The notes under the pieces were generated by a model that was not told the DNA's origin, made no database searches, and saw only the letters and a program-made list of their open reading frames with translations. The position numbers were made by a program, and so were the translations under genes. From assembly GCF_056746865.1 (NCBI RefSeq), contig NZ_CM163382.1: a stretch of DNA of 64,000 nt; one strand, written 5' to 3'. Positions 2,751-49,174 of the stretch are shown here, piece by piece (positions within the stretch are counted from its first letter, which is position 1; every line of letters begins with the position of its first letter).

Positions 2751-3465
2751 TGCACAGAAAACCCCCAGCTAGGCTGGGGGTTCCGGAAAGCTTTCAGCTT
2801 TGAGCCAGTTATTAAAACCCCTTTTGATTTGTTAAAACACCTTGCGGTCTGGCAACTGCAAGTGTCAAACAAGAAATCAAAAGGGGGTCCCAATGGGGAA
2901 CGAAAAGAGCTTAGCGCACACCCGATGGAACTGTAAATATCACATAGTTTTTGCGCCAAAATACCGAAGACAGGTGTTCTACAGAGAGAAGCGTAGAGCA
3001 ATAGGCAGTATTTTGAGAAAGCTGTGTGAGTGGAAAAGCGTACGGATTCTGGAAGCTGAATGCTGTGCAGATCATATCCATATGCTTGTGGAGATCCCGC
3101 CTAAAATGAGCGTATCCGGGTTTATGGGATATCTGAAAGGGAAAAGCAGTCTGATGCTTTACGAGCAGTTTGGTGATTTGAAATTCAAATACAGGAACAG
3201 GGAGTTCTGGTGCAGAGGGTACTACGTCGATACAGTGGGTAAGAACACGGCGAAGATACAGGATTACATAAAGCACCAGCTTGAAGAGGATAAAATGGGA
3301 GAGCAGTTATCGATTCCCTATCCGGGCAGCCCGTTTACGGGCCGTAAGTAACGAAGTTGGATGCAAATGTCAGATCGTGTGCGCCTGTTAGGGCGCGGCT
3401 GGTAAGAGAGCCTTATAGGCGCATTTGAAAAACCTCCGGCTATGCCGGAGGATATTTATTTAGTT
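2751..3465 (+). mobile_element. IS200-type element (IS200/IS605 family); ends approximate
   Basis: About 710 bp extra DNA between fabF and pabC; perfect 8-bp/3-nt-loop hairpins near both ends (2762-2780 and 3433-3451); RBS-sequestering stem-loop (2818-2886) just before the tnpA start. Confidence 0.7.
2893..3351 (+). CDS. tnpA: IS200 transposase TnpA (Y1 HUH type, 152 aa)
   Basis: Product MGNEKSLAHTRWNCKYHIVFAPKYRR...HIHMLVEIPP... matches the recalled IS200 TnpA sequence; HUH motif (HIH) present. Confidence 0.9.
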   Translation: MGNEKSLAHTRWNCKYHIVFAPKYRRQVFYREKRRAIGSILRKLCEWKSVRILEAECCADHIHMLVEIPPKMSVSGFMGYLKGKSSLMLYEQFGDLKFKYRNREFWCRGYYVDTVGKNTAKIQDYIKHQLEEDKMGEQLSIPYPGSPFTGRK

Positions 3466-3530
3466 TTTATTCCGACTTGTTCCGTAGTGAACATGCTGCC
3501 ACACTAACAATTCTCTGATAAGGAGCCGGT

Positions 3531-4340
3531 ATGTTCTTAATTAACGGTCATAAGCAGGAATCGCTGGCAGTAAGCGATCGGGCAACGCAGTTTGGTGATG
3601 GTTGTTTTACCACCGCCAGAGTTATCGACGGTAAAGTCAGTTTGTTATCGGCGCATATCCAGCGACTACAGGATGCTTGTCAGCGGTTGATGATTTCCTG
3701 TGACTTCTGGCCTCAGCTTGAACAAGAGATGAAAACGCTGGCAGCAGAACAGCAAAATGGTGTACTGAAAGTCGTGATCAGTCGCGGTAGTGGCGGGCGA
3801 GGGTACAGCACATTGAACAGTGGACCGGCAACGCGGATTCTCTCCGTTACGGCTTATCCTGCACATTACGACCGTTTGCGTAACGAAGGGATGACGTTGG
3901 CGCTAAGCCCGGTGCGGCTGGGGCGCAATCCTCATCTTGCAGGTATTAAACATCTTAATCGGCTTGAGCAAGTATTGATCCGCTCTCATCTTGAGCAGAC
4001 AAACGCTGATGAGGCGCTGGTCCTTGACAGCGAAGGGTGGGTTACGGAATGCTGTGCGGCTAATTTGTTCTGGCGGAAGGGCAACGTAGTTTATACGCCG
4101 CGACTGGATCAGGCAGGTGTTAACGGCATTATGCGACAATTCTGTATCCGTTTGCTGGCACAATCCTCTTATCAGCTTGTCGAAGTGCAAGCCTCTCTGG
4201 AAGAGGCGTTGCAGGCAGATGAGATGGTTATTTGTAATGCGTTAATGCCAGTGATGCCCGTACGTGCCTGTGGCGATGTCTCCTTTTCGTCAGCAACGTT
4301 ATATGAATATTTAGCCCCACTTTGTGAGCGCCCGAATTAG
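3531..4340 (+). CDS. pabC: aminodeoxychorismate lyase
   Basis: 269-aa ORF in the conserved fabF-pabC-mltG position; class IV aminotransferase-like product. Confidence 0.9.
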
Positions 4341-4342
4341 TC

Positions 4343-5365
4343 ATGAAAAAAGTGTTATTGATAATCTTGTTATTGCTGGTGGTACTGGGTATCGCCGCTG
4401 GTGTGGGCGTCTGGAAGGTTCGCCATCTTGCCGACAGCAAATTGCTTATCAAAGAAGAGACGATATTTACTCTGAAGCCAGGGACCGGACGTCTGGCGCT
4501 CGGTGAACAGCTTTATGCCGATAAGATCATCAATCGCCCACGGGTTTTTCAATGGTTGCTGCGTATCGAACCGGATCTTTCTCACTTTAAAGCCGGGACT
4601 TACCGCTTTACACCGCAGATGACCGTGCGCGAGATGCTGAAATTGTTGGAAAGCGGTAAAGAAGCACAGTTCCCGCTGCGACTGGTAGAAGGGATGCGTC
4701 TGAGCGACTACCTCAAGCAATTGCGTGAGGCTCCGTATATCAAGCACACGCTGAGCGACGATAAGTACGCCACCGTAGCGCAGGCACTTGAACTGGAAAA
4801 CCCGGAGTGGATTGAAGGTTGGTTCTGGCCAGACACCTGGATGTATACCGCCAATACCACCGATGTCGCGTTACTCAAGCGAGCGCACAAGAAAATGGTG
4901 AAAGCGGTCGATAGCGCCTGGGAAGGGCGTGCGGACGGTCTGCCTTATAAAGATAAAAACCAGTTGGTGACGATGGCATCAATTATCGAAAAAGAAACCG
5001 CCGTTGCCAGTGAACGCGATCAGGTTGCCTCAGTATTTATCAACCGTTTACGCATTGGTATGCGCCTGCAGACCGACCCGACCGTGATTTACGGGATGGG
5101 AGAGCGTTATAATGGCAAACTTTCTCGTGCAGACCTGGAAACGCCGACAGCGTATAACACCTATACCATTACCGGTCTGCCGCCAGGTGCGATAGCGACG
5201 CCGGGGGCGGATTCGCTGAAGGCTGCTGCGCATCCGGCAAAAACGCCGTATCTCTATTTTGTGGCCGATGGTAAAGGTGGTCACACGTTTAATACCAATC
5301 TTGCCAGTCATAACAAGTCTGTGCAGGATTATCTGAAAGTGCTTAAGGAAAAAAATGCGCAGTAA
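4343..5365 (+). CDS. mltG: endolytic murein transglycosylase (YceG)
   Basis: 340-aa ORF with N-terminal membrane anchor and YceG-like domain; conserved synteny. Confidence 0.92.
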
Positions 5366-34032: not shown

Positions 34033-35151
34033 TCAAATAACCAACTTAACCCATTCCTGACCTCGAGTATCGTTATAGCGATCGGTGGTTGCCTGGACTT
34101 TATGTCCTAGTAATGTTTTTGTATCGATACCCTGTGCACGGTACAGCCGTTCTGATAGAGAGCGTTGTTCATGAAATGTTGGCGGAGTTTTTCCTGCTGG
34201 TGGAATTATCCCAGCCAGATCCCGTGCTTTGGCAAAGTAGTCGCTCAGGTTGTCTTTACTCATCGGCTTCGGTTGTTTCTGGTGCCGACTATGGATTAGA
34301 TATGGACTTAATATTCTGTCTCGGCACCCATCAATAACTTCTTTTAACGTTATCCCAATGGCATCACAGCGTAGTGTAAGCGGTAACGCCAGACGCATTC
34401 CGGTTTTTCCCTGGGTGATATGCAAGTGTTCGTTCCACACATCTGAAAAACGCATGTGGCAAATGTCATCACGGCGCTGACCAGTAACAATCGCAAGAAG
34501 CATTGCGTTACGGATAAAGTGTTTTTCAGGCGTTGCATTGTAAATTTTTTGCCAGTCTTCCATGGTGAGCCTGGCTCTGGTTACTTTAGGGATCGGTTTA
34601 CGGGTAGCCTCCGGAGGATTCCATCCAGGAGGAACTTCCCCTGCATGCTGTGCTTCTTTATAAATATCAACCCATAATCCACGATTTACTCTCGCTGTGC
34701 TGACCATGTCTTTATCCAGCCACTCATCCAGTATTAATGCAAAGTCTCTTACTTCCAGTTCTTTCAATGGGTGGTTTCCCAGACGGGAAACCAGGTATGC
34801 AGCCATTCGAGTTTTTTCTTTGTGAGTTGTAGCTGCAATATCTCCATTTTTCAGTCGCGTGTTCTGTATTTTCAGATATCGATCAACCCATGCCTTTAAT
34901 CTGATACCCCGACGTTTTGTTGCTGACGGACTTTCATCAATTTTGCGCATGAAATATTCAGCTTCTGCTGCAGCTATTCGCTGATTGGCTGTGGAAGCGA
35001 TTTTTTCTGCCTTACCTTTGTCTGTTCCGAGTCCGTGAAATTTTCCAGTCACAGGATTTTTATACTGGTAGTAAACTCTGCCAGTTCTGCGATCAAACTT
35101 TTCGTAAAGACCGGCTACGTCAGTGCTGTTTTTTCGTGGCCTCGGTGACAT
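34033..35151 (-). CDS. int: tyrosine-type site-specific integrase (lambda Int family)
   Basis: 372-aa ORF; C-terminal catalytic region ...HEQRSLSERLYRAQGIDTKTLLGHKVQATTDRY... resembles lambda Int R-H-R-Y signature. Confidence 0.9.
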   Translation of the reverse strand: MSPRPRKNSTDVAGLYEKFDRRTGRVYYQYKNPVTGKFHGLGTDKGKAEKIASTANQRIAAAEAEYFMRKIDESPSATKRRGIRLKAWVDRYLKIQNTRLKNGDIAATTHKEKTRMAAYLVSRLGNHPLKELEVRDFALILDEWLDKDMVSTARVNRGLWVDIYKEAQHAGEVPPGWNPPEATRKPIPKVTRARLTMEDWQKIYNATPEKHFIRNAMLLAIVTGQRRDDICHMRFSDVWNEHLHITQGKTGMRLALPLTLRCDAIGITLKEVIDGCRDRILSPYLIHSRHQKQPKPMSKDNLSDYFAKARDLAGIIPPAGKTPPTFHEQRSLSERLYRAQGIDTKTLLGHKVQATTDRYNDTRGQEWVKLVI

Positions 35152-39907: not shown

Positions 39908-40010
39908 GTTCTTACGCCTCGGGCTGGCTACTTAACCCCTGACCACTGCCGGGTAACTCGAAGTATTTCCCTGCGTTCTGTGGGGCGGGGTGGGTTGGTA
40001 TGTTGTTAAT

Positions 40011-40024
40011 GTAACAAGAGTTAC
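40011..40024. promoter_or_regulatory. candidate left operator (OL) site
   Basis: GTAACAAGAGTTAC matches the GTAAC-N4-GTTAC dyad also found twice in the cI-cro intergenic region. Confidence 0.5.
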
Positions 40025-40062
40025 CTTTCGAGTCAATACAATGTTGCAAAAGGTACATTTGA

Positions 40063-40093
40063 GGGCATAAAAAACCCGCAATGAATGCGGGTT
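40063..40093 (-). terminator. intrinsic terminator immediately downstream of cI
   Basis: Hairpin aacccgca-atgaa-tgcgggtt with U-run on the minus-strand transcript, 5 nt after the cI stop. Confidence 0.6.
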
Positions 40094-40098
40094 CTGAC

Positions 40099-40773
40099 TC
40101 AGTCTAAGTATTGATGTATTTGTGAAACTTTACCTTTAATGGTGTAACCACCATTCAGTTCGATGGGTTTGTAAAGCGGATTCAGTGACAACAAATAGAT
40201 GTTTGGTCCGTCAATCGCAACTTTTTTTAGTGTTACGTTTGGCGTTCCTTCCAATTGGATTAAGATTATTTTTCCCACCAGTTCTCTAATGTTACTTGAG
40301 CATGGTGTGATCAGCACGGTAGATCCGTCGGGGATGGTTGGGAGGCCGTTAGAGTTTGTCATCGCATCTCCCTCAACATGCAATAAAAAAGAGTTTTCAG
40401 CGGTTTTTGTCATGACATCAACCCAGTTATTAATACCAGGAATCTTGGTTACTGGACAACTCATATCCCAATAACCAGCCTGTTCCCACGTTAAAACGGG
40501 CAACCGGGCGATGTTGTCACTAATGTAAGGGTACTGATTCAGACGCAGATCATCGGTTTTATCGTGACAGTCCTTTCCATAAAGAATCCATTCAGGAGAT
40601 TTGGAAAGCAATTTTGACAGTAGATACAAATTCTCACCGTCAGGTTTTGAAGAGCCATTTTCCCATTTTGTTACGGATACACGAGATATGCCGATTGCTT
40701 TCGCAACCTGCTGTTGGGTTAATCCAACGTCTTTTCGACGATTCCGAATACGTTCGCTGATAGTGTTTTTCAT
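40099..40773 (-). CDS. cI: CI-type prophage repressor (N-terminal HTH plus C-terminal S24 LexA-like peptidase)
   Basis: HTH LTQQQVAKAIGISRVSVTKWENG; S24 domain with catalytic GDAM serine context and a downstream Lys; start trimmed to MKNTISER... leaving a 91-bp operator region before cro. Confidence 0.85.
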   Translation of the reverse strand: MKNTISERIRNRRKDVGLTQQQVAKAIGISRVSVTKWENGSSKPDGENLYLLSKLLSKSPEWILYGKDCHDKTDDLRLNQYPYISDNIARLPVLTWEQAGYWDMSCPVTKIPGINNWVDVMTKTAENSFLLHVEGDAMTNSNGLPTIPDGSTVLITPCSSNIRELVGKIILIQLEGTPNVTLKKVAIDGPNIYLLSLNPLYKPIELNGGYTIKGKVSQIHQYLD

Positions 40774-40835
40774 GTAACCAATGTTACTACCAAGTGATGT
40801 TGCTATGGTTGACATTGTTATGTAACTATTGTTAC
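40774..40835. promoter_or_regulatory. right operator region (OR) with two dyad sites between cI and cro
   Basis: GTAACCAATGTTAC (40774-40787) and GTAACTATTGTTAC (40822-40835); consensus -35 TTGACA at 40809-40814. Confidence 0.55.
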
Positions 40836-40864
40836 CCTTCTGCTCGAAATAACAGGAGAGTTTT

Positions 40865-41080
40865 ATGTTCAAAGATGATGTTCTGCGCTATTTCAAAAAA
40901 AAGCGACTAGTAGCTGAGGCTCTTGGAATTTCACATGTGGCTGTTGTGCGGTGGAAAGCAGTTATTCCCAAACTTCGCGCAATGGAACTGGATGAAATTA
41001 CTAACGGTGAATTGAAATACAACCCAGAACTTTACAAGAAGCAGGATAGCACCTCGAACGAAGGAAAGAATGATTCATGA
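40865..41080 (+). CDS. cro: Cro-like HTH regulator
   Basis: 71-aa ORF divergent from cI across the operator region; HTH AEALGISHVAVVRW. Confidence 0.7.
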   Translation: MFKDDVLRYFKKKRLVAEALGISHVAVVRWKAVIPKLRAMELDEITNGELKYNPELYKKQDSTSNEGKNDS

Positions 41081-41502
41081 AAATCAAGCATGAACACATC
41101 CGCATGGCGATGAATGTCTGGGCGCATCCGGACGGCGAAAAAGTACCGGCTGCGAAAATTACCAAAGCGTATTTCGAGCTGGGAATGACGTTCCCGGAAC
41201 TGTATGACGACAGCCATCCGGAAGCCCTGGCCCGTAATACCCAGAAAATTTTCCGTTGGCTGGATAAAGACACCCCTGATGCTGTTGAAAAAATGCAGGC
41301 TCTGTTACCGGCGATCGAAAAGGCGATGCCGCCTTTGCTGGTGGCCCGTATGCGCAGCCACAGTTCTGAATATTACCGTGAGATCGTCGAACGGAGGGAT
41401 CGGCTGGTGAAGGATGTCGATGATTTTGTTGCGTCAGCGGTTGTTTTGTATGACCAGATGAATCGCGGCGGCCCGGCAGGGAATGCTGTGGTGATGCACT
41501 AA
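41077..41502 (+). CDS. CII/YdaT-like early regulatory protein
   Basis: 141-aa ORF directly after cro (ATGA overlap), in the position of Rac ydaT / lambda cII; sequence similarity not verified. Confidence 0.45.
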   Translation: MKIKHEHIRMAMNVWAHPDGEKVPAAKITKAYFELGMTFPELYDDSHPEALARNTQKIFRWLDKDTPDAVEKMQALLPAIEKAMPPLLVARMRSHSSEYYREIVERRDRLVKDVDDFVASAVVLYDQMNRGGPAGNAVVMH

Positions 41503-41524
41503 AAGCACGGTGTTCGGGGGTTTT

Positions 41525-42487
41525 ATGAGCAGCAAGCTTCATGGTCTTGTCTGGGAAGGGTGCGCCTTCACCGGCATGATCTTATCCAGGGTGGCGGTTA
41601 TGGCCCGTCTTGCAGACTACAGCAATGACGAGGGCGTGTCATGGCCTGCCATTGAAACTATCCGGCGTCAGATCGGTGCAAGAAGTGAATCCACAGTGAA
41701 ATCGGCTATTGCAGAACTGGCGAAAGAGGGCTGGCTGACGAAGGAAGAGCGTAAGGTCGGTGGGCGTAATGTAAGCAATATCTATCGGCTTAATGTGGAA
41801 AAACTCGAAGCAGCTGCGGCGGCGGCGCGTGAGTCATATAAACCGAAAAGAAAAATTAGCCCGGCAAAAAATGACCCGTTAACAGTTGACCCGTCAAATA
41901 TTGACCCCTCAACGGTTGACCCGTCAAATTTTGATGGATCAACTGTTGATAAAAAACTGCCGATTAGGGGGGCGATGATTGACCCCGATCCGTCAGTATT
42001 AAAACCTGATCCGTCAGATAAAAGATCTTCTTGTCCGGACGCTTCGCAACCGGACCCGCAGACGGCTGAACAGGATTTTTTAACCCGACACCCTGACGCG
42101 GTTGTGTTCAGTGCGAAAAAACGCCAGTGGGGAAGTCAGGAAGATTTGGTGTGCGCACAGTGGATCTGGGGACGAATCGTGAGTCTTTACGAGCAGGCGG
42201 CCAGCGATGATGGCGAGATCACTAGACCGAAAGAACCCAACTGGACAGCATGGGCCAATGACGTTCGCACAATGCGGATGCTGGATGGCAGAACTCACAG
42301 ACAAATTTGTGAAATGTTTGGGCGTCTCCAGCGGGATTCGTTCTGGGTAAAAAACATCATGAGTCCGGCAAAACTCCGGGAAAAATGGGATGAACTGGTT
42401 ATCCGCCTGGGGCGTTCGCCTGCGCAGCGTTGCGTGAATCACATTTCTGAACCGGACACTGAAATACCGCCGGGATTCAGGGGGTGA
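41525..42487 (+). CDS. replication initiation protein (O-like / YdaU-like)
   Basis: N-terminal winged-helix region; internal tandem DP(S/L)xV repeats encoded by iterons; followed by a DnaC-like loader; ATG at 41525 preferred over GTG at 41510. Confidence 0.7.
   Translation: MSSKLHGLVWEGCAFTGMILSRVAVMARLADYSNDEGVSWPAIETIRRQIGARSESTVKSAIAELAKEGWLTKEERKVGGRNVSNIYRLNVEKLEAAAAAARESYKPKRKISPAKNDPLTVDPSNIDPSTVDPSNFDGSTVDKKLPIRGAMIDPDPSVLKPDPSDKRSSCPDASQPDPQTAEQDFLTRHPDAVVFSAKKRQWGSQEDLVCAQWIWGRIVSLYEQAASDDGEITRPKEPNWTAWANDVRTMRMLDGRTHRQICEMFGRLQRDSFWVKNIMSPAKLREKWDELVIRLGRSPAQRCVNHISEPDTEIPPGFRG
41870..41944. repeat. origin-type iterons: five tandem 15-bp repeats, each an internal TTGAC..GTCAA dyad
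   Basis: atgacccgttaacag / ttgacccgtcaaata / ttgacccctcaacgg / ttgacccgtcaaatt / ttgatggatcaactg at 15-bp phase inside the initiator gene. Confidence 0.65.
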
Positions 42488-42493
42488 CGTGTC

Positions 42494-43240
42494 ATGAAAA
42501 ACATTGCGGCAGTTGGGGTTCTTGAACGTATTCGCAGACTTGCACCACAGGGGTCGGTTCCACCGTACCGGACGGTGGAGGAGTGGCGGGAATGGCAACT
42601 TGCTGAAGGACGAAAACGCAGCGAGGAGATTAACCGCCAGAATCGCCAGTTGCGGGTGGAAAAAATCCTGAATCGTTCGGGCATCCAGCCTCTGCACAGC
42701 AAATGCTCGTTTGCAAATTATCAGGTGCAGAACGACGGGCAAAAATACGCGCTGAGCCAGGCCAAATCCATAGCTGACGAACTGATGACCGGGTGCACGA
42801 ATTTTGTGTTCAGCGGTAAAACCGGCACCGGGAAAAATCACCTTGCAGCGGCGATGGGCAACCGGCTGATGGTGAAGGGGCGCAGCGTGATTATCGTCAC
42901 CGTGTCTGACGTCATGAGCGTGTTGCATGACAGCTACGACAACGGCAAATCCGGGGAAAAATTTTTACAGGAGCTTTGCGGGGTTGATTTGCTGGTCCTG
43001 GATGAAATAGGCGTTCAGCGGGAGACGAAAAACGAGCAGGTGGTATTGCACCAGATAATTGATCGCCGGACAGCATCACTGTGCAGTGTCGGGATGTTAA
43101 CAAACCTGAATCATGCCGCAATGAGTACGCTTCTTGGTGAGAGGATTATGGACCGCATGACCATGAACGGTGGTCGATGGGTGACGTTTAACTGGGATAG
43201 CTGGCGTCCAAATGTCAGCAATATGAGGGTTGTGAAGTAA
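42494..43240 (+). CDS. DnaC-like helicase loader (IstB-type AAA+ ATPase)
   Basis: Walker A GKTGTGKNHLAAA and Walker B LLVLDEIG. Confidence 0.85.
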   Translation: MKNIAAVGVLERIRRLAPQGSVPPYRTVEEWREWQLAEGRKRSEEINRQNRQLRVEKILNRSGIQPLHSKCSFANYQVQNDGQKYALSQAKSIADELMTGCTNFVFSGKTGTGKNHLAAAMGNRLMVKGRSVIIVTVSDVMSVLHDSYDNGKSGEKFLQELCGVDLLVLDEIGVQRETKNEQVVLHQIIDRRTASLCSVGMLTNLNHAAMSTLLGERIMDRMTMNGGRWVTFNWDSWRPNVSNMRVVK

Positions 43241-43261
43241 TTTTGTCCGGAGGAAATTTTA

Positions 43262-44032
43262 ATGGAAACCGTATCTGACGCACTGAAAGCACTGAAAAAA
43301 GCCTCTTCACATGTGGTGGCAGCTCGCCTTGGAATCAGTCGTGAAGAGGCTGTCAACGAGCTGTGGGAACTCAAAAGAAATGGCGTCGTTGATAAAACTG
43401 GTCACACCTGGTTTCTGGCTGGCGAAGGTGAATCCCGGGTAACCGAAGAGCGGCCAGTAAAATCTGAAGCACAGGATATGCTGACCGGGGAGGTCGAACA
43501 AAAAGTTACCGCAGACATGATGATTGAGTTTATCGGTCAGGATGGGGCTAAAACGTGTGAGGAACTGGCGGGTAAGTTCGGTGTCAGTACTCGCAAGGTT
43601 GCTTCCACGCTGGCGGTGGTAACCGCAACGGGGCGGCTGGCACGCGTTAATCAGAACGGTAAATTTCGTTACTGCATGCCGGGCGATAATTTACCAGCAG
43701 AGCCGAAAGCCGCGCTGGTAACGGAAAGTGATGGTAAGGCCTTTCCTCAGCCAGCAGGTGCTGCGTTACCAGGCCGGGAAGCCGCAACACAGGAAGAAAT
43801 TAAAACAGAAACTGTGGCGGACATTGTGCAGTCGTTGCCATCGTTTACCGAAACGCAAGCAGATGAGCTGATTTTTCCGTCCCTGCGCAGGGCAAACCTG
43901 GCGCTGCGCAGGGCGAAAAGTGATGTTCAGAAGTGGGAGCGAGTCTGCGCCGCGCTGCGGGAGCTGAACAAGCACCGGGATATTGTTCGACAGATTACTG
44001 ATTCTTCCCGCCGTGTTGTATCGGAAAAGTGA
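43262..44032 (+). CDS. hypothetical phage protein
   Basis: 256-aa ORF with AGGAGG-like RBS; N-terminal region may be winged-helix. Confidence 0.55.
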   Translation: METVSDALKALKKASSHVVAARLGISREEAVNELWELKRNGVVDKTGHTWFLAGEGESRVTEERPVKSEAQDMLTGEVEQKVTADMMIEFIGQDGAKTCEELAGKFGVSTRKVASTLAVVTATGRLARVNQNGKFRYCMPGDNLPAEPKAALVTESDGKAFPQPAGAALPGREAATQEEIKTETVADIVQSLPSFTETQADELIFPSLRRANLALRRAKSDVQKWERVCAALRELNKHRDIVRQITDSSRRVVSEK

Positions 44033-44047
44033 TTGCCGGAGGCGCTT

Positions 44048-44470
44048 ATGGCAAAAGTATTTACACAAGAAGAGCGGGAAAAAATTAAAGGGCAGGTTGT
44101 TGAACTTGTACGTCTGAGCGGTCGCGAGACGTTGCGGCAACTGGAAGCCAAGACAGGTGCGACAAGATATCTGATGAGTGTTCTCGCCAGAGAGCTGGTT
44201 GCCAGTGGCGATGTATACAACTCTGGTTACGGGTTATTCCCGTCTGAACAGGCGCGTAAGGACTGGCAAAACGCCCGCAAAAAACTCTCAAGGGCAAATC
44301 TGAAGAAACCATCTGTGGTTGATCCTGACCTTATCTGGCCATTACCAGACGGCGAAATACGCCGCTACGACAGGCGTCAAAACATAATCTGTAGCGAGTG
44401 CCGGAAGAGCGAAGCTATGCAGCGTGTACTGGCTTTCTATCAGGGTAATTTTCAGAAGGTGCTGTTGTGA
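44048..44470 (+). CDS. hypothetical phage protein
   Basis: ATG 7 nt after GGAGG; track ORF 44033-44470 begins at an upstream TTG. Confidence 0.5.
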   Translation: MAKVFTQEEREKIKGQVVELVRLSGRETLRQLEAKTGATRYLMSVLARELVASGDVYNSGYGLFPSEQARKDWQNARKKLSRANLKKPSVVDPDLIWPLPDGEIRRYDRRQNIICSECRKSEAMQRVLAFYQGNFQKVLL

Positions 44471-44575
44471 GCCAAATTAACAATCGGAACTTCGTGAAGA
44501 GAAAGCATAATCCAAATCTGAATAATTAAGTTCAGCACTGTAAATAAAATTTAATCCTTAACTGGAGGTATATCT

Positions 44576-44689
44576 ATGTCAAATACACAGAAAATTATTA
44601 ACACTGAAAAATATAACGAGTGGGTGAAAAATTCTCTGAGCAGATTTTTAAAATTACTGGCGACGAGAATGTGGCAAAAAATGAATTAG
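44576..44689 (+). CDS. hypothetical 37-aa ORF
   Basis: ATG 8 nt after GGAGG at the end of repeat motif copy A; an overlapping alternative frame exists. Confidence 0.25.
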   Translation: MSNTQKIINTEKYNEWVKNSLSRFLKLLATRMWQKMN

Positions 44690-44819
44690 AACCGTGGACA
44701 CCTGAAGGAAACGCACCAAATTATTGCTGGTGGGAGGTTGATCCGGTTGATGCTGCAAATGAAGCCATGAGTTACCACAACGATTAATGTCGGGAGGCCG
44801 CCCGAAAGGGCGGTAAGAA

Positions 44820-45038
44820 ATGACTACATTATTCAGAAAAGAATATCCGCAAAAAAGTAGGGCGACAGAATTTTTGTTTCTCATTCTGTTTATCGTATTG
44901 ATGATACCGATATCCCCTCTAATTTTTGTCTGGGCAATCGGGAAAATAATTGAGCCAGTTTCTGAATTGTATAACGACGTGGTGTGGGCGTCATTCAACA
45001 CACTGCACAATAAAATTAATCCGTATAAGGAAAACTGA
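44820..45038 (+). CDS. small hydrophobic protein
   Basis: 72-aa ORF preceded by SD-hairpin element copy 1; one predicted TM segment. Confidence 0.5.
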   Translation: MTTLFRKEYPQKSRATEFLFLILFIVLMIPISPLIFVWAIGKIIEPVSELYNDVVWASFNTLHNKINPYKEN

Positions 45039-45039
45039 T

Positions 45040-45243
45040 ATGGCAACTTTGACAAAAAAAGAACGGGCATGGTTGAACGAATTACAGGAAGTTCTTGATC
45101 GCTGTCCATCACCGAAAAAATTGGCTTTTACACCATTGGCGATAAAAGCATTTACCTGTATGACCTACGCCGCATGGATGAAATCATGGAGGCTCTTGAT
45201 AATCGTTCGTCGATGGATTGGTGTGTTGCTGTTCATGATATGA
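45040..45243 (+). CDS. hypothetical protein, possibly frameshifted
   Basis: MATLTKKERAWLNELQEVLDRCPSPKK...; a protein-like continuation exists in another frame to 45302. Confidence 0.3.
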   Translation: MATLTKKERAWLNELQEVLDRCPSPKKLAFTPLAIKAFTCMTYAAWMKSWRLLIIVRRWIGVLLFMI

Positions 45244-45433
45244 ATGCAGGGTTTGATGAAAAGATTTTGTTCCCCTCATCAGTTGAAAGCACTGCGGGTT
45301 AAGGAGTAACACATGACCACTATTACCAAAGAACGTATTGAATTGTTCATTAAATTTTCAGGAGGCGGTACTGTGAGTGAAATTAGCTATCAGGCTTCAA
45401 TTACCGCTGGCATTCGCATCAAAGGAGAGGAGC

Positions 45434-45790
45434 ATGGAAATAAAACCAGAGGATGAGTTAAGCAATATCGTTTTATTTCCGGTAAAAGAGGATGACCCTC
45501 GTAATCAGGTTAATTTTCTTTATGAGCCATCGGAAAGACCATATTGTCATCACGCCTCTGTCCGGGTTGACGAAAAAGAGCGTCAGGTCCGCTGTAAAAT
45601 CTGCGGTGCAGTTGTGGAACCATTTGACTGGATGCTCTCTGTGGCGAAAAGAGAAACCAGACTGGCAGATGATGTAAGGCTCTTGCGTCAGGAGGAGCGG
45701 GAAAGGCGAAAAAATATAGAAAAGCTAATTCAGATTGAGCGTAACGCGAAAGCGCGGATACGCAGGGCGACAAAATCCAGAACTGAATAA
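45434..45790 (+). CDS. hypothetical Cys/His-containing protein
   Basis: ATG after AAGGAGAGGAG; product has CHH...C..C cluster (putative zinc site). Confidence 0.5.
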   Translation: MEIKPEDELSNIVLFPVKEDDPRNQVNFLYEPSERPYCHHASVRVDEKERQVRCKICGAVVEPFDWMLSVAKRETRLADDVRLLRQEERERRKNIEKLIQIERNAKARIRRATKSRTE

Positions 45791-45883
45791 TTAAATTTAG
45801 CTCTGTTAAAAATTTAATCCTTAACCGGAGGGATTTCTGCACCCTCAGAACATCAGGAGGCCGCCCGAAAGGGCGGTAGTTAA

Positions 45884-46066
45884 ATGCGAAAGTTTAAAAT
45901 AATTATTGAAACGGGAATAGCCGGTGGAGATTTCGAGGATGAATTCGAAGTGGATGATGATGCGACGCCTGATGAAATACATGACGAAGCAAAAGATATT
46001 TTCTTTAACTACTGCAATTACTCATATCACGAAATAAAAGACGAAGAGGAAGAACAAAATGGCTGA
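45884..46066 (+). CDS. small acidic protein
   Basis: 60-aa ORF preceded by SD-hairpin element copy 2. Confidence 0.5.
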   Translation: MRKFKIIIETGIAGGDFEDEFEVDDDATPDEIHDEAKDIFFNYCNYSYHEIKDEEEEQNG

Positions 46067-46235
46067 TTTTGGTTCAACTAAATACAACGTCGGTTTTGAA
46101 GAATGGCATGAACTGTTAATGGACTATGCAGAGTTACGTGGTGGCAGTGCTGCTGATGCTGAAGCATGGCGTGATGATTATGAAGCAGGAAAAACTCCGG
46201 TCGAAGCATATTGTGATGAGTGGGGCGATGAATGA
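46059..46235 (+). CDS. hypothetical 58-aa protein
   Basis: Manual translation MADFGSTKYNVGFEEWHELLMDYAELRGGSAADAEAWRDDYEAGKTPVEAYCDEWGDE; start overlaps the preceding stop. Confidence 0.3.
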   Translation: MADFGSTKYNVGFEEWHELLMDYAELRGGSAADAEAWRDDYEAGKTPVEAYCDEWGDE

Positions 46236-46717
46236 GCGAGGTTAATTATCAGGAAGGGCATGAAACGGCGGGGCAAGCAAAAACAGTGGCATGGCGATAT
46301 CGCTACGTGAAAAAAAGGCGTTACGGACTTTCAGGGGAAGTAGTGGTCTGGTGACTGGAAATATGTACCGAAAAAAGAGGATTGTAACGACAGGCCGAAC
46401 TATGAAATTCAGGCCTTATTCACTGCCCCGCCAGTCCCGGTTACATCAGAAGAACTGGTTAAAGCTGTGCACTTTTATGAACAACTAAAATGCGAAAATC
46501 CACCAGCATCCGGAAACCTGATTACAGATTCCCAGATAAGGCAATGAGCTACCTGGCGCAGAACGGGCTGATAAGTATGGGGAATGTTTTACGATGAATA
46601 TTTAGACTAAAGAGTTTGTAACGCTATGTAAGTGATTTTTTCTGGTTTAGATATTTATATGTCCGGCTAAATTGAGGTGTGTTTAAATGTTATTGCACAT
46701 TGATTGTAGGGGGAATA

Positions 46718-46897
46718 ATGAAAAACGCATTGCAGTTTTTGTTTGTTGCGTTCTGGTTGTTCGCATCATGTATGCCCATCATCTTCACAGCAAGGTATAT
46801 GGAAAAAGTTGATGTTTTGATATTAATGTTTGGACATATAAATGCCCTTTTTTTAGGGGTGTTCATGGCGGTCATGTGCATTGAATACTGGCGGTAA
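46718..46897 (+). CDS. small membrane protein (AT-rich gene)
   Basis: ATG after AGGGGGAATA; product MKNALQFLFVAFWLFASCMPIIF... with two hydrophobic segments. Confidence 0.4.
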   Translation: MKNALQFLFVAFWLFASCMPIIFTARYMEKVDVLILMFGHINALFLGVFMAVMCIEYWR

Positions 46898-47155
46898 ATA
46901 CAGCGAACGCCATTGGTTTAGTTGGATATTTACTGTGCCGGACAAAAACGGTTTGCGGGGAAATCTTAGTTAAGTAGAATGACTGCGGGTGCTTGAGGCT
47001 ATCTGTCTCAGGCATGAACACCAAAAGGCAGATAGAGAAAAGCCCCAGTTAACATTACGCGTCCTGCAAGACGCTTAACATTAATCTGAGGCCATATCTA
47101 TGCGACACATAGAGATTAGCCTCTTACGGACCGAAAGGTCAAGGAGAAGCAGGCT

Positions 47156-47311
47156 ATGAAGCAGCAAAAGGCGATGTTAATCGCCCTGATCGTCATCTGT
47201 TTAACCGTCATAGTGACGGCACTGGTAACGAGGAAAGACCTCTGCGAGGTACGAATCCGAACCGGCCAGACGGAGGTCGCTGTCTTCACAGCTTACGAAC
47301 CTGAGGAGTAA
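47156..47311 (+). CDS. hok: Hok/Gef-family type I toxin (51 aa)
   Basis: MKQQKAMLIALIVICLTVIVTALVTRKDLCEVRIRTGQTEVAVFTAYEPEE matches the recalled HokD/RelF sequence; short overlapping upstream ORF 47100-47159 (mok-like); 3' stem-loop 47319-47340. Confidence 0.8.
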   Translation: MKQQKAMLIALIVICLTVIVTALVTRKDLCEVRIRTGQTEVAVFTAYEPEE

Positions 47312-47478
47312 GAGACCAGGCGAGGGGGAAATCCCTCGCCACCTCTGATGAGTCAGGCATCCTCAACGCACCCGCACTTAACCCGCTTCGGCGGGTTTTG
47401 TTTTTTCCTGGCATTCTGGTTTACAATTCGCACGTCAGCCTGAACACCTGACACCTGCTGCGCCAGTAGAGAAAACAG

Positions 47479-47751
47479 ATGGCGCACAAAACCAAATTTC
47501 ACAATTCTGATACCGACCTTGCCATCCGGCATGGGCGGCGTTCACACGCATTTAAAACCGACTGGTACCAACACCCACCATGTACTGAAGAACAGGCCGA
47601 ATGGCTAATTCATAACTACCGCAGACGCGGATACGAGATTAAGAAAGCCCTCAGCCTCGATTATCGTCACTGGATAATCTATGTCAGGCTCCCTTATTCC
47701 GAACGCTCACCGCGCCCATCCCGCACATTCCAGCAACGCATCTGGAGGTAA
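47479..47751 (+). CDS. hypothetical protein (Rem-position)
   Basis: 90-aa ORF between hok and the DUF968 gene, the position of rem in the Qin hokD-rem-ydfU arrangement. Confidence 0.45.
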   Translation: MAHKTKFHNSDTDLAIRHGRRSHAFKTDWYQHPPCTEEQAEWLIHNYRRRGYEIKKALSLDYRHWIIYVRLPYSERSPRPSRTFQQRIWR

Positions 47752-47752
47752 C

Positions 47753-48802
47753 GTGCGGATATTACTTCGACCTGTTCTGGTACCGGAACTCGGGCTGGTG
47801 GTCCTTAGGCCGGGCCGTGAATCCATGCCGGTATTCCACAATACCCGGGTACTGGTGGAGCCTGAACCGAAAAGCATGCACGGTCTGCCGTCCGGAGTCG
47901 TCCCTGCCGTTCGCCAGCCGCTGGCGGAGGATAAATCATTTCTGCCATTTTTCAGCGATGAGCGGGTGATTCGTGCTGCTGGCGGCGCTGGGGCACTGTC
48001 TGACTGGCTGTTGCGTCATGTCAAATCCTGCCAGTGGCCTCATGGTGACTATCATCACAGTGAAATCGTCATACATCGTTACGGTACCGGCGCGATGGTG
48101 TTGTGCTGGCACTGCGACAACCAGTTGCGCGACCAGACCTCCGAATCACTCGGGCAACTTGCTCATCAAAACCTGTCAGCATGGATGATTGACGTCATAC
48201 GCCATGCAATGAATGGCACGCAGGAGCGGGAATTGTCGCTGGCTGAATTATCCTGGTGGGCGGTCCGCAATCAGGTGGCGGACGCGCTACCGGAAGTGGT
48301 ATTACGTCGTTCGCTGGGGTTGCGTGCGGAAAAAATCCGCTCAATGTACCGTGAAAGCGACATCGTACCGGGAGAGCAGACCGCCACCAGCATACTGAAA
48401 CAGCGCACAAAAAATATTGCGCCGCTGCCTCACGCCCACCAGCAACAGAACCCACCACAGGAAAAGACGGTGGTCAGCATTGCCGTTGATCCTGAGTCTC
48501 CGGAATCTTTCATGAAACGACCTAAACGTCGCCGCTGGGTTAACGAGAAATACAAACGCTGGGTGAAGACACAGCCGTGTGCGTGTTGTGGTAAGCCAGC
48601 CGACGATCCCCATCACCTGATTGGTCATGGTCAGGGCGGAATGGGGACAAAATCTCACGATATTTTCACGCTACCGCTGTGTCGGGAGCATCACAACGAG
48701 CTTCATGCGGATCCTCTGGCGTTCGAACAAAAGCATGGTTCTCAGGTTGATTTAATTTTTCGTTTTCTTGATCACGCCTTTGCAACTGGCGTGCTTGGGT
48801 AA
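47753..48802 (+). CDS. DUF968-family (YdfU-like) protein with C-terminal Cys/His motif
   Basis: GTG start 3 nt after GGAGGTA; C-terminal ...CACCGKPADDPHHLIGHGQGGMGTKSHDIFTLPLCREHHNELH; track ORF 47681-48802 is an upstream extension. Confidence 0.7.
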   Translation: MRILLRPVLVPELGLVVLRPGRESMPVFHNTRVLVEPEPKSMHGLPSGVVPAVRQPLAEDKSFLPFFSDERVIRAAGGAGALSDWLLRHVKSCQWPHGDYHHSEIVIHRYGTGAMVLCWHCDNQLRDQTSESLGQLAHQNLSAWMIDVIRHAMNGTQERELSLAELSWWAVRNQVADALPEVVLRRSLGLRAEKIRSMYRESDIVPGEQTATSILKQRTKNIAPLPHAHQQQNPPQEKTVVSIAVDPESPESFMKRPKRRRWVNEKYKRWVKTQPCACCGKPADDPHHLIGHGQGGMGTKSHDIFTLPLCREHHNELHADPLAFEQKHGSQVDLIFRFLDHAFATGVLG

Positions 48803-48814
48803 AAGAGGTGACTG

Positions 48815-49174
48815 ATGCTCATAGATTTGGTTTTACCTTACCCGCCGACGGTGAACACTTACTGGCGACGCCGTGGCAGCACATATTTTATTTCGGAGGA
48901 GGGAAAGCGTTATCGCCGGGCTGTGGCGCTTATTGTTCGCCAGCAGCGGCTGAAATTAAGCCTGTCCGGAAGGCTGGCGATAAAGGTGATTGCAGAGCCA
49001 CCGGATAAGCGTCGTCGCGACCTGGACAATATCCTGAAAGCACCGCTGGATGCGCTGACGCATGCGGGAGTGTTAATGGACGATGAGCAGTTTGATGAAA
49101 TCAATATTGTACGTGGTCAGCCAGTATCTGGTGGACGGCTGGGTGTGAAGATTTACAAAATTGAGAGTGAGTGA
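48815..49174 (+). CDS. rusA: RusA Holliday-junction resolvase
   Basis: 119-aa ORF with RusA signature ...DKRRRDLDNILKAPLDALTHAGVLMDDEQ... Confidence 0.85.
   Translation: MLIDLVLPYPPTVNTYWRRRGSTYFISEEGKRYRRAVALIVRQQRLKLSLSGRLAIKVIAEPPDKRRRDLDNILKAPLDALTHAGVLMDDEQFDEINIVRGQPVSGGRLGVKIYKIESE

What the first reader, a model, noticed from the sequence alone, without database searches (positions are those of the whole stretch)
44792..45886. Duplicated SD-hairpin-AUG element preceding two small nin-region genes
The 24-nt element AGGAGG-CCGCCC-GAAA-GGGCGG-T occurs twice (44792-44815 and 45855-45878), each 5-6 nt before an ATG (44820 and 45884). The SD is about 24 nt from the start codon in linear sequence, too far for canonical initiation, but a 7-bp GC stem with a GNRA tetraloop between them would bring them into proper spacing. 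This resembles the structured-spacer arrangement described for phage T4 gene 38 and implies RNA-structure-dependent translation of both ORFs.
Basis: partly seen in the sequence, partly recalled or inferred. Interest (0 to 1): 0.5.

Follow-up and report, generated by a model that had tools for sequence, protein, structure and literature searches.

The report
Portable split ribosome-binding site in prophages
A 23-base unit, a ribosome-binding sequence followed directly by a very stable RNA hairpin, sits just before two small prophage genes; it looks built like the rare "split" ribosome-binding site of phage T4 gene 38, it is reused in front of many unrelated small genes in E. coli prophages, and it marks the points where those genes have been swapped.

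Summary
GGAGG-CCGCCC-GAAA-GGGCGG-T occurs at 44793-44814 and 45856-45877. The copies are exact over 23 nt, and no shuffle of the window contains the element. Each ends 5-6 nt before the ATG of a real coding gene (DUF4014, 44820; DUF7167, 45884).

It is not a local duplication. The window holds two members of a dispersed family found in 2393 of 5426 complete E. coli genomes, up to 7 places per genome. In lambdoid prophages it precedes at least 7 unrelated small-gene families, always 6-11 nt from the start codon.

The hairpin is predicted to form with probability about 1 (dG -12 to -14 kcal/mol). The Shine-Dalgarno (SD) sequence lies 22-23 nt from the AUG in linear sequence and 5-6 nt when folded. 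This matches the T4 gene 38 site, which I fetched and folded for comparison.

In a gene-anchored sample the 21-nt core has per-site diversity 0.003-0.009, against 0.34-0.48 in the flanks. Stem transitions are all C-to-U (G.U-compatible); there are no double compensatory changes. Synteny breakpoints against phage ArgO145 fall exactly on the two copies.

Best reading (confidence about 0.55): a portable split ribosome-binding site that also serves as a recombination junction. Translation dependence on the stem is inferred, not shown. It is a new variant of a known kind, of moderate interest.

The parts
44792..44797 (+). Shine-Dalgarno sequence of copy 1 (GGGAGG); its last G can pair with U44814
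   Evidence: Sequence read. The GGAGG core is almost invariant in 129 gene-anchored loci (diversity 0.009), while the base just 5' of it varies among A, G, C and T.
44798..44814 (+). Hairpin of copy 1: CCGCCC-GAAA-GGGCGG plus U44814, which closes a G.U pair
   Evidence: Pair probabilities are 0.97-1.0 for the G-C pairs and 0.83 for the G.U pair. dG is -12.4 to -14.4 kcal/mol. The local fold has z = -3.5 to -4.2.
44815..44819 (+). A-rich spacer AAGAA between the hairpin and the start codon; contains no SD
44820..45038 (+). DUF4014 (PF13198, phrog_1832) gene, 72 aa, membrane-like; served by copy 1
   Evidence: Variable sites by codon position are 26/21/47 across 23 alleles.
45855..45860 (+). Shine-Dalgarno sequence of copy 2 (AGGAGG)
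45861..45877 (+). Hairpin of copy 2: CCGCCC-GAAA-GGGCGG plus U45877
   Evidence: Pair probabilities are 0.99-1.0, and 0.86 for the G.U pair.
45878..45883 (+). Spacer AGTTAA; its TAA is an in-frame stop directly abutting the ATG
45884..46066 (+). DUF7167 (phrog_1997) gene, 60 aa, acidic; served by copy 2
   Evidence: Variable sites by codon position are 8/6/19 across 17 alleles.
45791..45854 (+). Conserved intergenic leader joined to copy 2 (AATCCTTAACCGGAGGGATTTCTGCACCCTCAGAACATCA). It contains an orphan SD (GGAGGG, 45827-45832) with no start codon behind it.
   Evidence: Conserved across loci. The 115-nt leader plus hairpin is found in 2393 of 5426 complete E. coli genomes.
44521..44575 (+). 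Second copy of the first half of that leader. Here its GGAGG (44564-44568) serves ATG 44576 directly, at 7-nt spacing.
   Evidence: window 44518-44575 matches L001 4658-4708.
44576..44787 (+). Upstream 70-aa gene, frameshifted in this window. Its end (...HND*, GATTAATGTC) is the alternative upstream context of the element.
   Evidence: An intact homologue is in L049. Contexts are tabulated.
45434..45790 (+). Upstream 118-aa zinc-ribbon-like gene (phrog_1621) that precedes the leader and copy 2

Best explanation
Each copy is a split (noncontiguous) translation-initiation region. On the early polycistronic mRNA, a strong Shine-Dalgarno sequence (GGAGG) is followed directly by a very stable 6-7 bp G-C hairpin capped by a GAAA tetraloop. 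An A/U-rich spacer of 5-6 nt and then the AUG follow. When the hairpin folds, the SD, which is 22-23 nt away in linear sequence, comes within about 5-6 nt plus one helix end of the AUG. A 30S subunit could then use it without melting the stem, as described for T4 genes 38 and 25.

The unit is portable. The same 21-26 nt module precedes at least 7 unrelated small accessory-gene families in E. coli lambdoid prophages. Because it is the only sequence shared between otherwise unrelated cassettes, it is also where homologous recombination swaps the downstream genes. Each incoming gene therefore arrives behind a ready-made ribosome-binding site.

- **Shown:** sequence, predicted fold, geometry, distribution, extreme conservation and breakpoint coincidence.
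- **Inferred:** that ribosomes actually use the upstream SD, and that the stem is required.
For: - **Not chance.** The element is real and not expected by chance.
- **Stable hairpin.** It is predicted with probability about 1 and dG of -12.4 to -14.4 kcal/mol.
- **Geometry.** Both ATGs are the only possible starts and have no SD in the spacer. The architecture is the same as the T4 gene 38 site fetched and folded here. The literature figures are 22 to 5 nt and 27 to 11 nt (PMC3014915; PMC7297116).
- **Reuse across genes.** In 88 distinct contexts the module precedes MRKFK, MTTLF/MKHYL, MTELT, MEITK, MQEIK, MLTLK and other gene starts. Spacers are 6-11 nt, and only one spacer type has its own SD.
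- **Contrast with hairpin-free homologues.** DUF4014 genes without the hairpin have AAAGGAGAGTGAT-[AG]TG or GGGAGTGAT-ATG, an ordinary SD at ordinary spacing.
- **Conservation.** In 129 gene-anchored loci, per-site diversity is 0.009 (SD) and 0.003 (hairpin). It is 0.34-0.45 in the flanks and 0.48 at third codon positions.
- **RNA-level substitution pattern.** All stem transitions seen are C-to-U, which gives G.U pairs: four positions in the 5' arm and one in the 3' arm. No G-to-A was seen. One loop change keeps the GNRA form (GGAA).
- **Orphan SD is less constrained.** The orphan SD in the leader tolerates GGATGG, while the SD next to the hairpin rarely changes.
- **Real genes.** The downstream genes show an excess of third-position variation.
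- **Recombination junction.** Homology blocks between the window and ArgO145 end or start at 44815/44790 and 45878/45853. The downstream cassettes are swapped between the two phages.
Against: - **No experimental evidence.** No reporter, toeprint or ribosome profiling data were found, and the exact hairpin string is absent from the searchable literature.
- **No true covariation.** There are 0 double compensatory changes, and the shuffle control is uninformative. The family is young and narrow, confined to E. coli-type lambdoid prophages.
- **Adjacency may be inherited.** The SD and hairpin travel together as one recombining block, so their constant adjacency could reflect descent rather than selection.
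- **Conservation has another explanation.** Near-identity could partly reflect recent spread or gene conversion.
- **One disruptive variant.** A 3'-arm G-to-T change exists in 1 locus.
- **Predicted competing pairing.** In the leader context the SD's AGGA is predicted to pair weakly with an upstream UCCU, which would oppose initiation.
- **Element without a gene.** In four loci the element is followed by no gene on its strand.
- **SD-independent initiation is possible.** A/U-rich spacers can support initiation in E. coli without an SD (general knowledge).
Confidence: 0.55

Rival explanations
1. The hairpin is mainly an mRNA stability or processing element at cassette boundaries, for example a barrier to 3'-to-5' exonucleases protecting the upstream cistron, or a protective 5' structure after endonuclease cleavage. 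The neighbouring GGAGG is incidental. The downstream genes would then be translated by SD-independent, A/U-rich-dependent initiation or by re-initiation.
For: - It is a stable G-C hairpin with a tetraloop placed after stop codons: 10 nt after the stop in one context and about 70 nt in the other.
- It persists where no gene follows on the same strand (L049, L083).
- RNA-level constraint (G.U-only changes) fits this reading equally well.
Against: - The hairpin-to-ATG distance is held at 6-11 nt across at least 7 gene families. A stabiliser for the upstream cistron would not need that.
- GGAGG is as conserved as the stem, whereas the base before it is free.
- Hairpin-free homologues carry a canonical SD, which suggests these genes do need one.
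Confidence: 0.18
2. The element is only a recombination linker (a 'boundary sequence' of the modular lambdoid genome) with no RNA-level role. It stays identical because it is the shared homology through which cassettes are repeatedly exchanged.
For: - Synteny breakpoints coincide with both copies.
- All combinations of upstream context and downstream gene are found.
- A reverse-oriented two-gene insertion abuts the hairpin in L049 and L083.
- The core is a sharp island of identity.
Against: - A neutral linker should drift. The substitutions seen are strand-asymmetric and pairing-compatible (at least 5 C-to-U, 0 G-to-A).
- This reading does not explain why the linker is a perfect SD plus tetraloop hairpin held at a fixed short distance from every start codon.
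Confidence: 0.12
3. Specific to copy 1: a relay through a 9-codon mini-ORF (ATG 44787, MSGGRPKGR, stop 44814-44816). The mini-ORF overlaps the upstream stop codon (TAATG) and ends 3 nt before ATG 44820. Ribosomes would then reach DUF4014 by termination and re-initiation, unwinding the hairpin on the way.
For: The reading frame is visible in the sequence. The 'GATTAATGTC[AG]GGAGG' context recurs in many loci.
Against: The commoner leader context, including copy 2, has no start codon in that frame, yet it carries the same module. The relay cannot be the general mechanism.
Confidence: 0.05
4. The hairpin is an RNA operator for a phage protein: a boxB-like target for an N-type antiterminator, or the binding site of a translational repressor.
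For: It is a GNRA tetraloop on a short G-C stem, like lambda boxB in general shape (my own knowledge). The sequence, not just the pairing, is extremely conserved.
Against: - There is no boxA-like sequence upstream.
- It lies kilobases downstream of the immunity region, in up to 7 places per genome and in either early operon.
- There is no Rfam match.
- No candidate binding protein co-varies with it.
Confidence: 0.05
5. The hairpin is an intrinsic transcription terminator or attenuator.
For: It is a G-C-rich hairpin in an intergenic position.
Against: No U-tract follows it on either strand. The terminator scan does not call it. It sits inside operons directly in front of genes.
Confidence: 0.02

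Closest known systems
Split translation-initiation region of phage T4 gene 38 (Gold 1988; reviewed in PMC3014915)
   Same: An SD is directly followed by a 6-8 bp G-C-rich stem with an extra-stable tetraloop, then a 4-6 nt A/U spacer and the AUG. Linear SD-to-AUG distance is 22 nt, reduced to about 5. The site lies just after the stop codon of the preceding gene. I fetched and folded the T4 site and it gives the same picture.
   Different: The T4 loop is UUCG and the sequences are unrelated. The T4 site serves one gene in one phage group. This module is a dispersed repeat in front of many unrelated genes and is also a recombination joint. The T4 site has mutational proof; this one has none.
Split translation-initiation region of T4 gene 25 (Nivinskas et al. 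1999; Malys and Nivinskas 2009)
   Same: A hairpin between SD and AUG shortens the spacing from 27 to 11 nt. Conservation of the stem among related phages was used as evidence.
   Different: The T4 gene 25 site has a longer intervening structure and serves a single locus. Here conservation is near-identity rather than covariation.
Structured ribosome-binding sites of E. coli thrS and rpmE (PMC7297116, PMC3936740)
   Same: The ribosome accommodates a stable hairpin within the initiation region without melting it.
   Different: In those cases the SD is at normal distance and the hairpin lies upstream, acting as a regulatory operator. They are not portable repeats.
Boundary or linker sequences of lambdoid phage mosaics (Susskind and Botstein modular theory; Clark et al. 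2001, HK620, cited from memory and from reference lists)
   Same: A short sequence is conserved between otherwise unrelated modules at gene boundaries, and homology breakpoints coincide with it.
   Different: I could not read that paper, so identity with any published boundary sequence is untested. HK620 was not among the phage records carrying the hairpin. Those sequences were not described as split ribosome-binding sites.
Lambda nut site boxB hairpin
   Same: A short G-C stem with a GNRA-type loop on an early transcript.
   Different: There is no boxA, the position is wrong, there are many copies per prophage, and it directly abuts an SD and a start codon.

Membership tests
Split (noncontiguous) translation-initiation region, T4 gene 38/25 type | The SD lies too far from the start codon in linear sequence (more than about 15 nt) | tested here: met
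   22 nt (44798-44819) and 23 nt (45861-45883) lie between GGAGG and the ATG.
Split (noncontiguous) translation-initiation region, T4 gene 38/25 type | The intervening sequence forms a stable local hairpin that leaves the SD and AUG outside it | tested here: met
   In silico only. Pair probabilities are 0.97-1.0, dG is -12.4 to -14.4 kcal/mol and z is -3.4 to -4.2.
Split (noncontiguous) translation-initiation region, T4 gene 38/25 type | Folded spacing falls in the functional range, and no competing SD lies at normal distance | tested here: met
   5 and 6 nt remain after the stem in the window. Spacers are 6-11 nt across 88 contexts, and only the TGGAGATAATA type has a local SD.
Split (noncontiguous) translation-initiation region, T4 gene 38/25 type | Same architecture as the reference example when compared directly | tested here: met
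   The T4 gene 38 site (L242 2620-2652) was folded beside both copies.
Split (noncontiguous) translation-initiation region, T4 gene 38/25 type | The stem is maintained in relatives by compensatory change | tested here: inconclusive
   98.9% of cells are paired. 5 of 7 pairs vary on one side only (C-G to U-G). There are 0 double changes, and one disruptive G-to-T in 1 locus.
Split (noncontiguous) translation-initiation region, T4 gene 38/25 type | Stem-disrupting mutations lower translation and compensatory ones restore it | not testable with these tools
   This needs reporter fusions or toeprinting.
Lambda-type nut site (boxA + boxB) | A boxA element a few bases 5' of the hairpin | tested here: not met
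   The upstream sequence is CACCCTCAGAACATCA or ACGATTAATGTC. Neither resembles CGCTCTTTA (boxA consensus from my own knowledge).
Lambda-type nut site (boxA + boxB) | A promoter-proximal position in the pL or pR operon, one per operon | tested here: not met
   The element lies about 4-5 kb beyond the repressor gene, after the replication genes. There are two copies here and up to 7 per genome.
Intrinsic terminator | A G-C hairpin followed by a U-tract | tested here: not met
   The tails are TAAGAAATG and TAGTTAAATG. The reverse strand gives CCTCC.... The scan does not call it.
Any Rfam family | A covariance-model match | tested here: not met
   No hit at either copy at E up to 1 across 40000-50000.
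Lambdoid boundary / linker sequence | A short conserved sequence at a gene boundary that coincides with homology breakpoints between phages | tested here: met
   Blocks 44506-44815 / 44790-45069 and 45783-45878 / 45853-46280 map to swapped places in ArgO145. Diversity profile.
Lambdoid boundary / linker sequence | Identity with one of the published boundary sequences | not testable with these tools
   Clark et al. 2001 is not in the library. It appears only in reference lists.

The most novel reading that the evidence does not exclude
The module is a natural 'plug-and-play' junction. It would be a self-contained ribosome-binding site whose rigid tetraloop hairpin keeps the SD in a constant structural context whatever gene follows. 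Its invariant 21-26 nt would double as the homology used by phage recombinases to swap small accessory genes. Lambdoid prophages would then shuffle cassettes that are expressed immediately on arrival.
Probability: 0.3. Interest if true: 0.65.

Novelty: new variant of a known kind. Interest (0 to 1): 0.45.

Why it matters
Natural split ribosome-binding sites are known from only a handful of single loci, T4 genes 38 and 25 among them. A conserved, portable version would change that picture. This one is present in about 44% of complete E. coli genomes and is reused by many unrelated prophage genes. If it works as proposed, the mechanism is common in temperate phages rather than a T4 curiosity.

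It would also explain how genes annotated without a nearby SD are expressed, and why gene callers sometimes misplace their starts. It gives a concrete molecular candidate for the 'linker' that the modular theory of lambdoid evolution postulated. As a compact, context-insulated translation-initiation part, it may also interest synthetic biologists.

Tried and rejected
- **Rfam scan of 40000-50000:** nothing at the element, only sok and weak unrelated hits.
- **Promoter and terminator scan:** no call at either copy.
- **E. coli K-12 Rac prophage,** hoping to use K-12 data sets: the element is absent.
- **Literature search for the exact hairpin string:** 0 papers. Searches on split ribosome-binding sites and on lambdoid boundary sequences found only the T4, thrS and rpmE cases and reference-list mentions. 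The prophage sRNAs of PMC4104026 lie downstream of PR' and are unrelated.
- **Degenerate scan of species-representative genomes,** intended to find arm variants: 20 hits. 18 are chance matches in unrelated G+C-rich genomes and 2 are E. coli prophage contigs binned into Collinsella metagenome-assembled genomes. It gave no extra variants.
- **MRKFK-anchored retrieval:** it returned only proteins 100% identical to the query, so little divergence.
- **Mini-ORF through the hairpin:** present only in one of the two upstream contexts, so rejected as the general mechanism.
- **Three-frame-stop idea for the leader's CTGAATAATTAA:** 42 of 61 upstream genes use the same frame, so this is not supported.
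- **RNase III site:** rejected because the stem is far shorter than two helical turns (general knowledge).
Full report
**Observation.** The sequence GGAGG-CCGCCC-GAAA-GGGCGG-T is present at 44793-44814 and 45856-45877.
- The two copies are identical over 23 nt (GGAGGCCGCCCGAAAGGGCGGTA). Copy 1 begins GGGAGG rather than AGGAGG.
- No dinucleotide shuffle of the window contains even one copy at up to 3 mismatches.
- Each copy is followed by 5-6 nt (AAGAA; AGTTAA) and then by an ATG, at 44820 and 45884.
- An in-frame stop lies one codon or less upstream of each ATG, so neither gene can start earlier.
- The stem has six G-C pairs plus a flanking G.U pair, not seven G-C pairs. The loop is GAAA.

**Setting.** The window carries a lambdoid prophage, in this gene order:

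| Feature | Coordinates |
|---|---|
| Integrase | 34033-35151 (-) |
| Repressor | 40099-40872 (-) |
| O-like replication gene | 41510-42487 |
| DnaC-like replication gene | 42494-43240 |
| Ren-like gene | 44033-44470 |
| Small genes in question | about 44576-46300 |
| hok/sok (sok at 106.7 bits) | 46987-47311 |
| Q-like antiterminator | 49171-49737 |

- The position is therefore the 'nin' interval of the rightward early operon.
- The two downstream genes are DUF4014 (PF13198, phrog_1832, 72 aa) and DUF7167 (phrog_1997, 60 aa).
- Both show the third-codon-position excess of variable sites expected of real coding genes: 26/21/47 and 8/6/19.
- In Stx phages such as ArgO145 the same genes sit in the leftward ead/Ea22 region.

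**Not a local duplication but a dispersed family.**
- The 115-nt leader plus hairpin occurs in 2393 of 5426 complete E. coli genomes, with a median of 1 and up to 7 places per genome.
- In the phage collection it is confined to E. coli lambdoid phages, plus one record labelled Actinobacillus. It is absent from the K-12 Rac prophage.
- Across 88 distinct contexts the module precedes at least seven unrelated gene starts (MRKFK, MTTLF/MVTLF/MKHYL, MTELT/MAELT, MEITK, MQEIK, MLTLK and others).
- The hairpin-to-start spacers are 6-11 nt. Only one spacer type (TGGAGATAATA) contains its own SD.
- Two upstream contexts occur. One is a conserved leader of about 62 nt. The other is the end of a 70-aa gene. 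Every upstream-downstream combination is found.

**Structure.**
- ViennaRNA gives pair probabilities of 0.97-1.0 for the six G-C pairs and 0.83-0.86 for the G.U pair. dG is -12.4 kcal/mol for the 16-mer and -14.4 for the 18-mer.
- Local folds have z-scores of -3.4 to -4.2.
- The SD-to-AUG distance is 22-23 nt in linear sequence and 5-6 nt beyond the base of the stem.
- I fetched the T4 gene 38 initiation region (UAAGGAG-AGGGGC-UUCG-GCCCUU-CUAAAU-AUG) and folded it beside both copies. The architecture is the same: an SD abutting a short G-C stem with an extra-stable tetraloop, a short A/U spacer, then the AUG.
- The literature describes this arrangement for T4 genes 38 (22 to 5 nt) and 25 (27 to 11 nt). 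There, stem-destabilising mutations reduce translation (PMC3014915). PMC7297116 calls such sites noncontiguous or split.

**Comparative evidence.**
- I retrieved 154 loci by the DUF4014 protein, so the sample is unbiased with respect to the hairpin. Of these, 129 carry the module.
- The other 25 have an ordinary SD at ordinary spacing, embedded in the end of the upstream gene (AAAGGAGAGTGAT-[AG]TG or GGGAGTGAT-ATG).
- Among the 129, per-site nucleotide diversity is 0.009 in GGAGG and 0.003 in the hairpin. Upstream it is 0.34-0.45, inflated by mixing the two contexts. In the adjoining coding sequence it is 0.36-0.43, and 0.48 at third codon positions.
- The base immediately 5' of GGAGG varies among all four nucleotides.
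- Stem variants across all samples are CTGCCC, CCGTCC, CTGTCC, CCGCCT and CTGCTC in the 5' arm and GGGTGG in the 3' arm. All are C-to-U changes that keep a G.U pair. No G-to-A change was seen.
- One G-to-T change in one locus breaks the loop-closing pair. One loop variant, GGAA, remains GNRA; another, GGCA, does not.
- Formal counting gives 98.9% of cells paired, five of seven pairs varying on one side only, and no double compensatory change. The shuffle control is uninformative. RNAalifold gives a covariation term of -0.02.
- Under a simple strand-symmetric model, five pairing-compatible transitions against zero disruptive ones has a probability of about 0.03. This is suggestive of RNA-level constraint on the coding strand but does not prove it.

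**Recombination junction.** Local blastn of 44400-46400 against ArgO145 gives blocks that end or begin inside the two copies:

| Window block | ArgO145 (L001) block |
|---|---|
| 44506-44815 | 3366-3676 |
| 44790-45069 | 4723-4999 |
| 45406-45834 | 3001-3431 |
| 45783-45878 | 4658-4748 |
| 45853-46280 | 3651-4078 |

- In ArgO145 the 70-aa gene plus hairpin is followed by DUF7167, and the leader plus hairpin by DUF4014. That is the reverse of the arrangement in the window.
- In L049/L093 and L083/L098 a reverse-oriented two-gene insertion abuts the 3' side of the hairpin.
- The module is thus a mosaic joint of the kind postulated as linker or boundary sequences in lambdoid phages. I could not read Clark et al. 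2001 to compare sequences.

**Interpretation.**
- The best-supported reading is a portable split ribosome-binding site that is also the homology at which cassettes are exchanged (confidence about 0.55).
- Shown: the sequence, predicted fold, geometry, distribution, conservation and breakpoints.
- Inferred: that ribosomes use the upstream SD, and that the stem is needed.
- Rivals:
  - an mRNA stabiliser or processing hairpin with an incidental SD (0.18);
  - a neutral recombination linker (0.12);
  - a mini-ORF relay, possible only for copy 1 (0.05);
  - a protein-binding operator or boxB-like site (0.05);
  - a terminator (0.02).
- The stabiliser reading does not explain the fixed short distance to every start codon or the conservation of GGAGG.
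- The neutral-linker reading does not explain the asymmetric, pairing-compatible substitutions.
- The nut and terminator readings fail defining features: no boxA, wrong position, and no U-tract.

**Caveats.**
- The family is young and narrow, so covariation cannot be decisive.
- Near-identity may partly reflect recent spread.
- The SD and hairpin travel as one block.
- In the leader context the SD is predicted to pair weakly with an upstream UCCU.
- No experimental data were found.

**Novelty and score.**
- The mechanism is a known kind (the split TIR of T4 genes 38 and 25).
- The new points are that one conserved module is reused by many unrelated genes, is widespread in E. coli prophages, and coincides with recombination joints. 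I file it as a new variant of a known kind, with interest 0.45.

Noticed in passing
window 44576-44787 and 45041-45302: Two small genes are split by frameshifts at A-runs (gtgaaaaattc near 44626; ccgaaaaaaattgg near 45113). Intact homologues exist in other phages: 70 aa in L049 6485-6697 and 87 aa within L083 268-621. This could be either prophage decay or homopolymer sequencing errors.
   Followed up: partly
window 44521-44575 and 45791-45854: A second conserved intergenic unit (CTGAATAATTAA...AATCCTTAACYGGAGG) follows the stop codons of several different upstream genes. At 44564-44568 its SD serves ATG 44576 directly. At 45827-45832 the SD is orphaned and tolerates GGATGG in other loci. RNAalifold predicts UCCU/AGGA and GAGGG/CCCUC helices that would occlude both SDs, but without covariation.
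   Followed up: partly
window 47318-47405: Another hairpin lies directly before a start codon (GGCGAGGGGGAAATCCCTCGCC-ACCTCTGATG) and is followed by an intrinsic terminator (47376-47405). It overlaps a sub-threshold Rfam isrK match (26 bits against a gathering score of 50). In related loci this hairpin shows genuine double compensatory changes, for example GGCGAGGGA/TCCCTCGCC against GGCGGGAGA/TCTCCCGCC.
   Followed up: partly
window 46987-47311: A hok/sok toxin-antitoxin module: sok RNA at 106.7 bits (46987-47158), and a Hok-like 51-aa ORF at 47156-47311.
   Followed up: no
L003 11432-11510; Klebsiella phage ST15-OXA48phi14.1 15678-15701: The same 23-mer (CAGGAGGCCGCCCGAAAGGGCGG) lies inside a coding sequence, reading ...QEAARKGG.... 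The gene is annotated as terminase small subunit in the Klebsiella phage record. This could be the source of the element or a coincidence.
   Followed up: no
L049 6736-8219 and L083 1506-2692 (minus strand): A convergent two-gene insertion (310 aa plus 184 aa; the second gene is truncated to 85 aa in L083) replaces the downstream cassette directly after the hairpin. It looks like a moron, possibly a defence system.
   Followed up: no
window 50619-51524: A transposase ORF (phrog_157) lies shortly downstream of the Q-like antiterminator, suggesting an IS insertion in the late-promoter region of the prophage.
   Followed up: no
L224 and L234 (genome contigs): Two metagenome-assembled genomes labelled Collinsella carry contigs with the E. 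coli prophage leader-hairpin-DUF7167 arrangement. This is most likely binning contamination.
   Followed up: no
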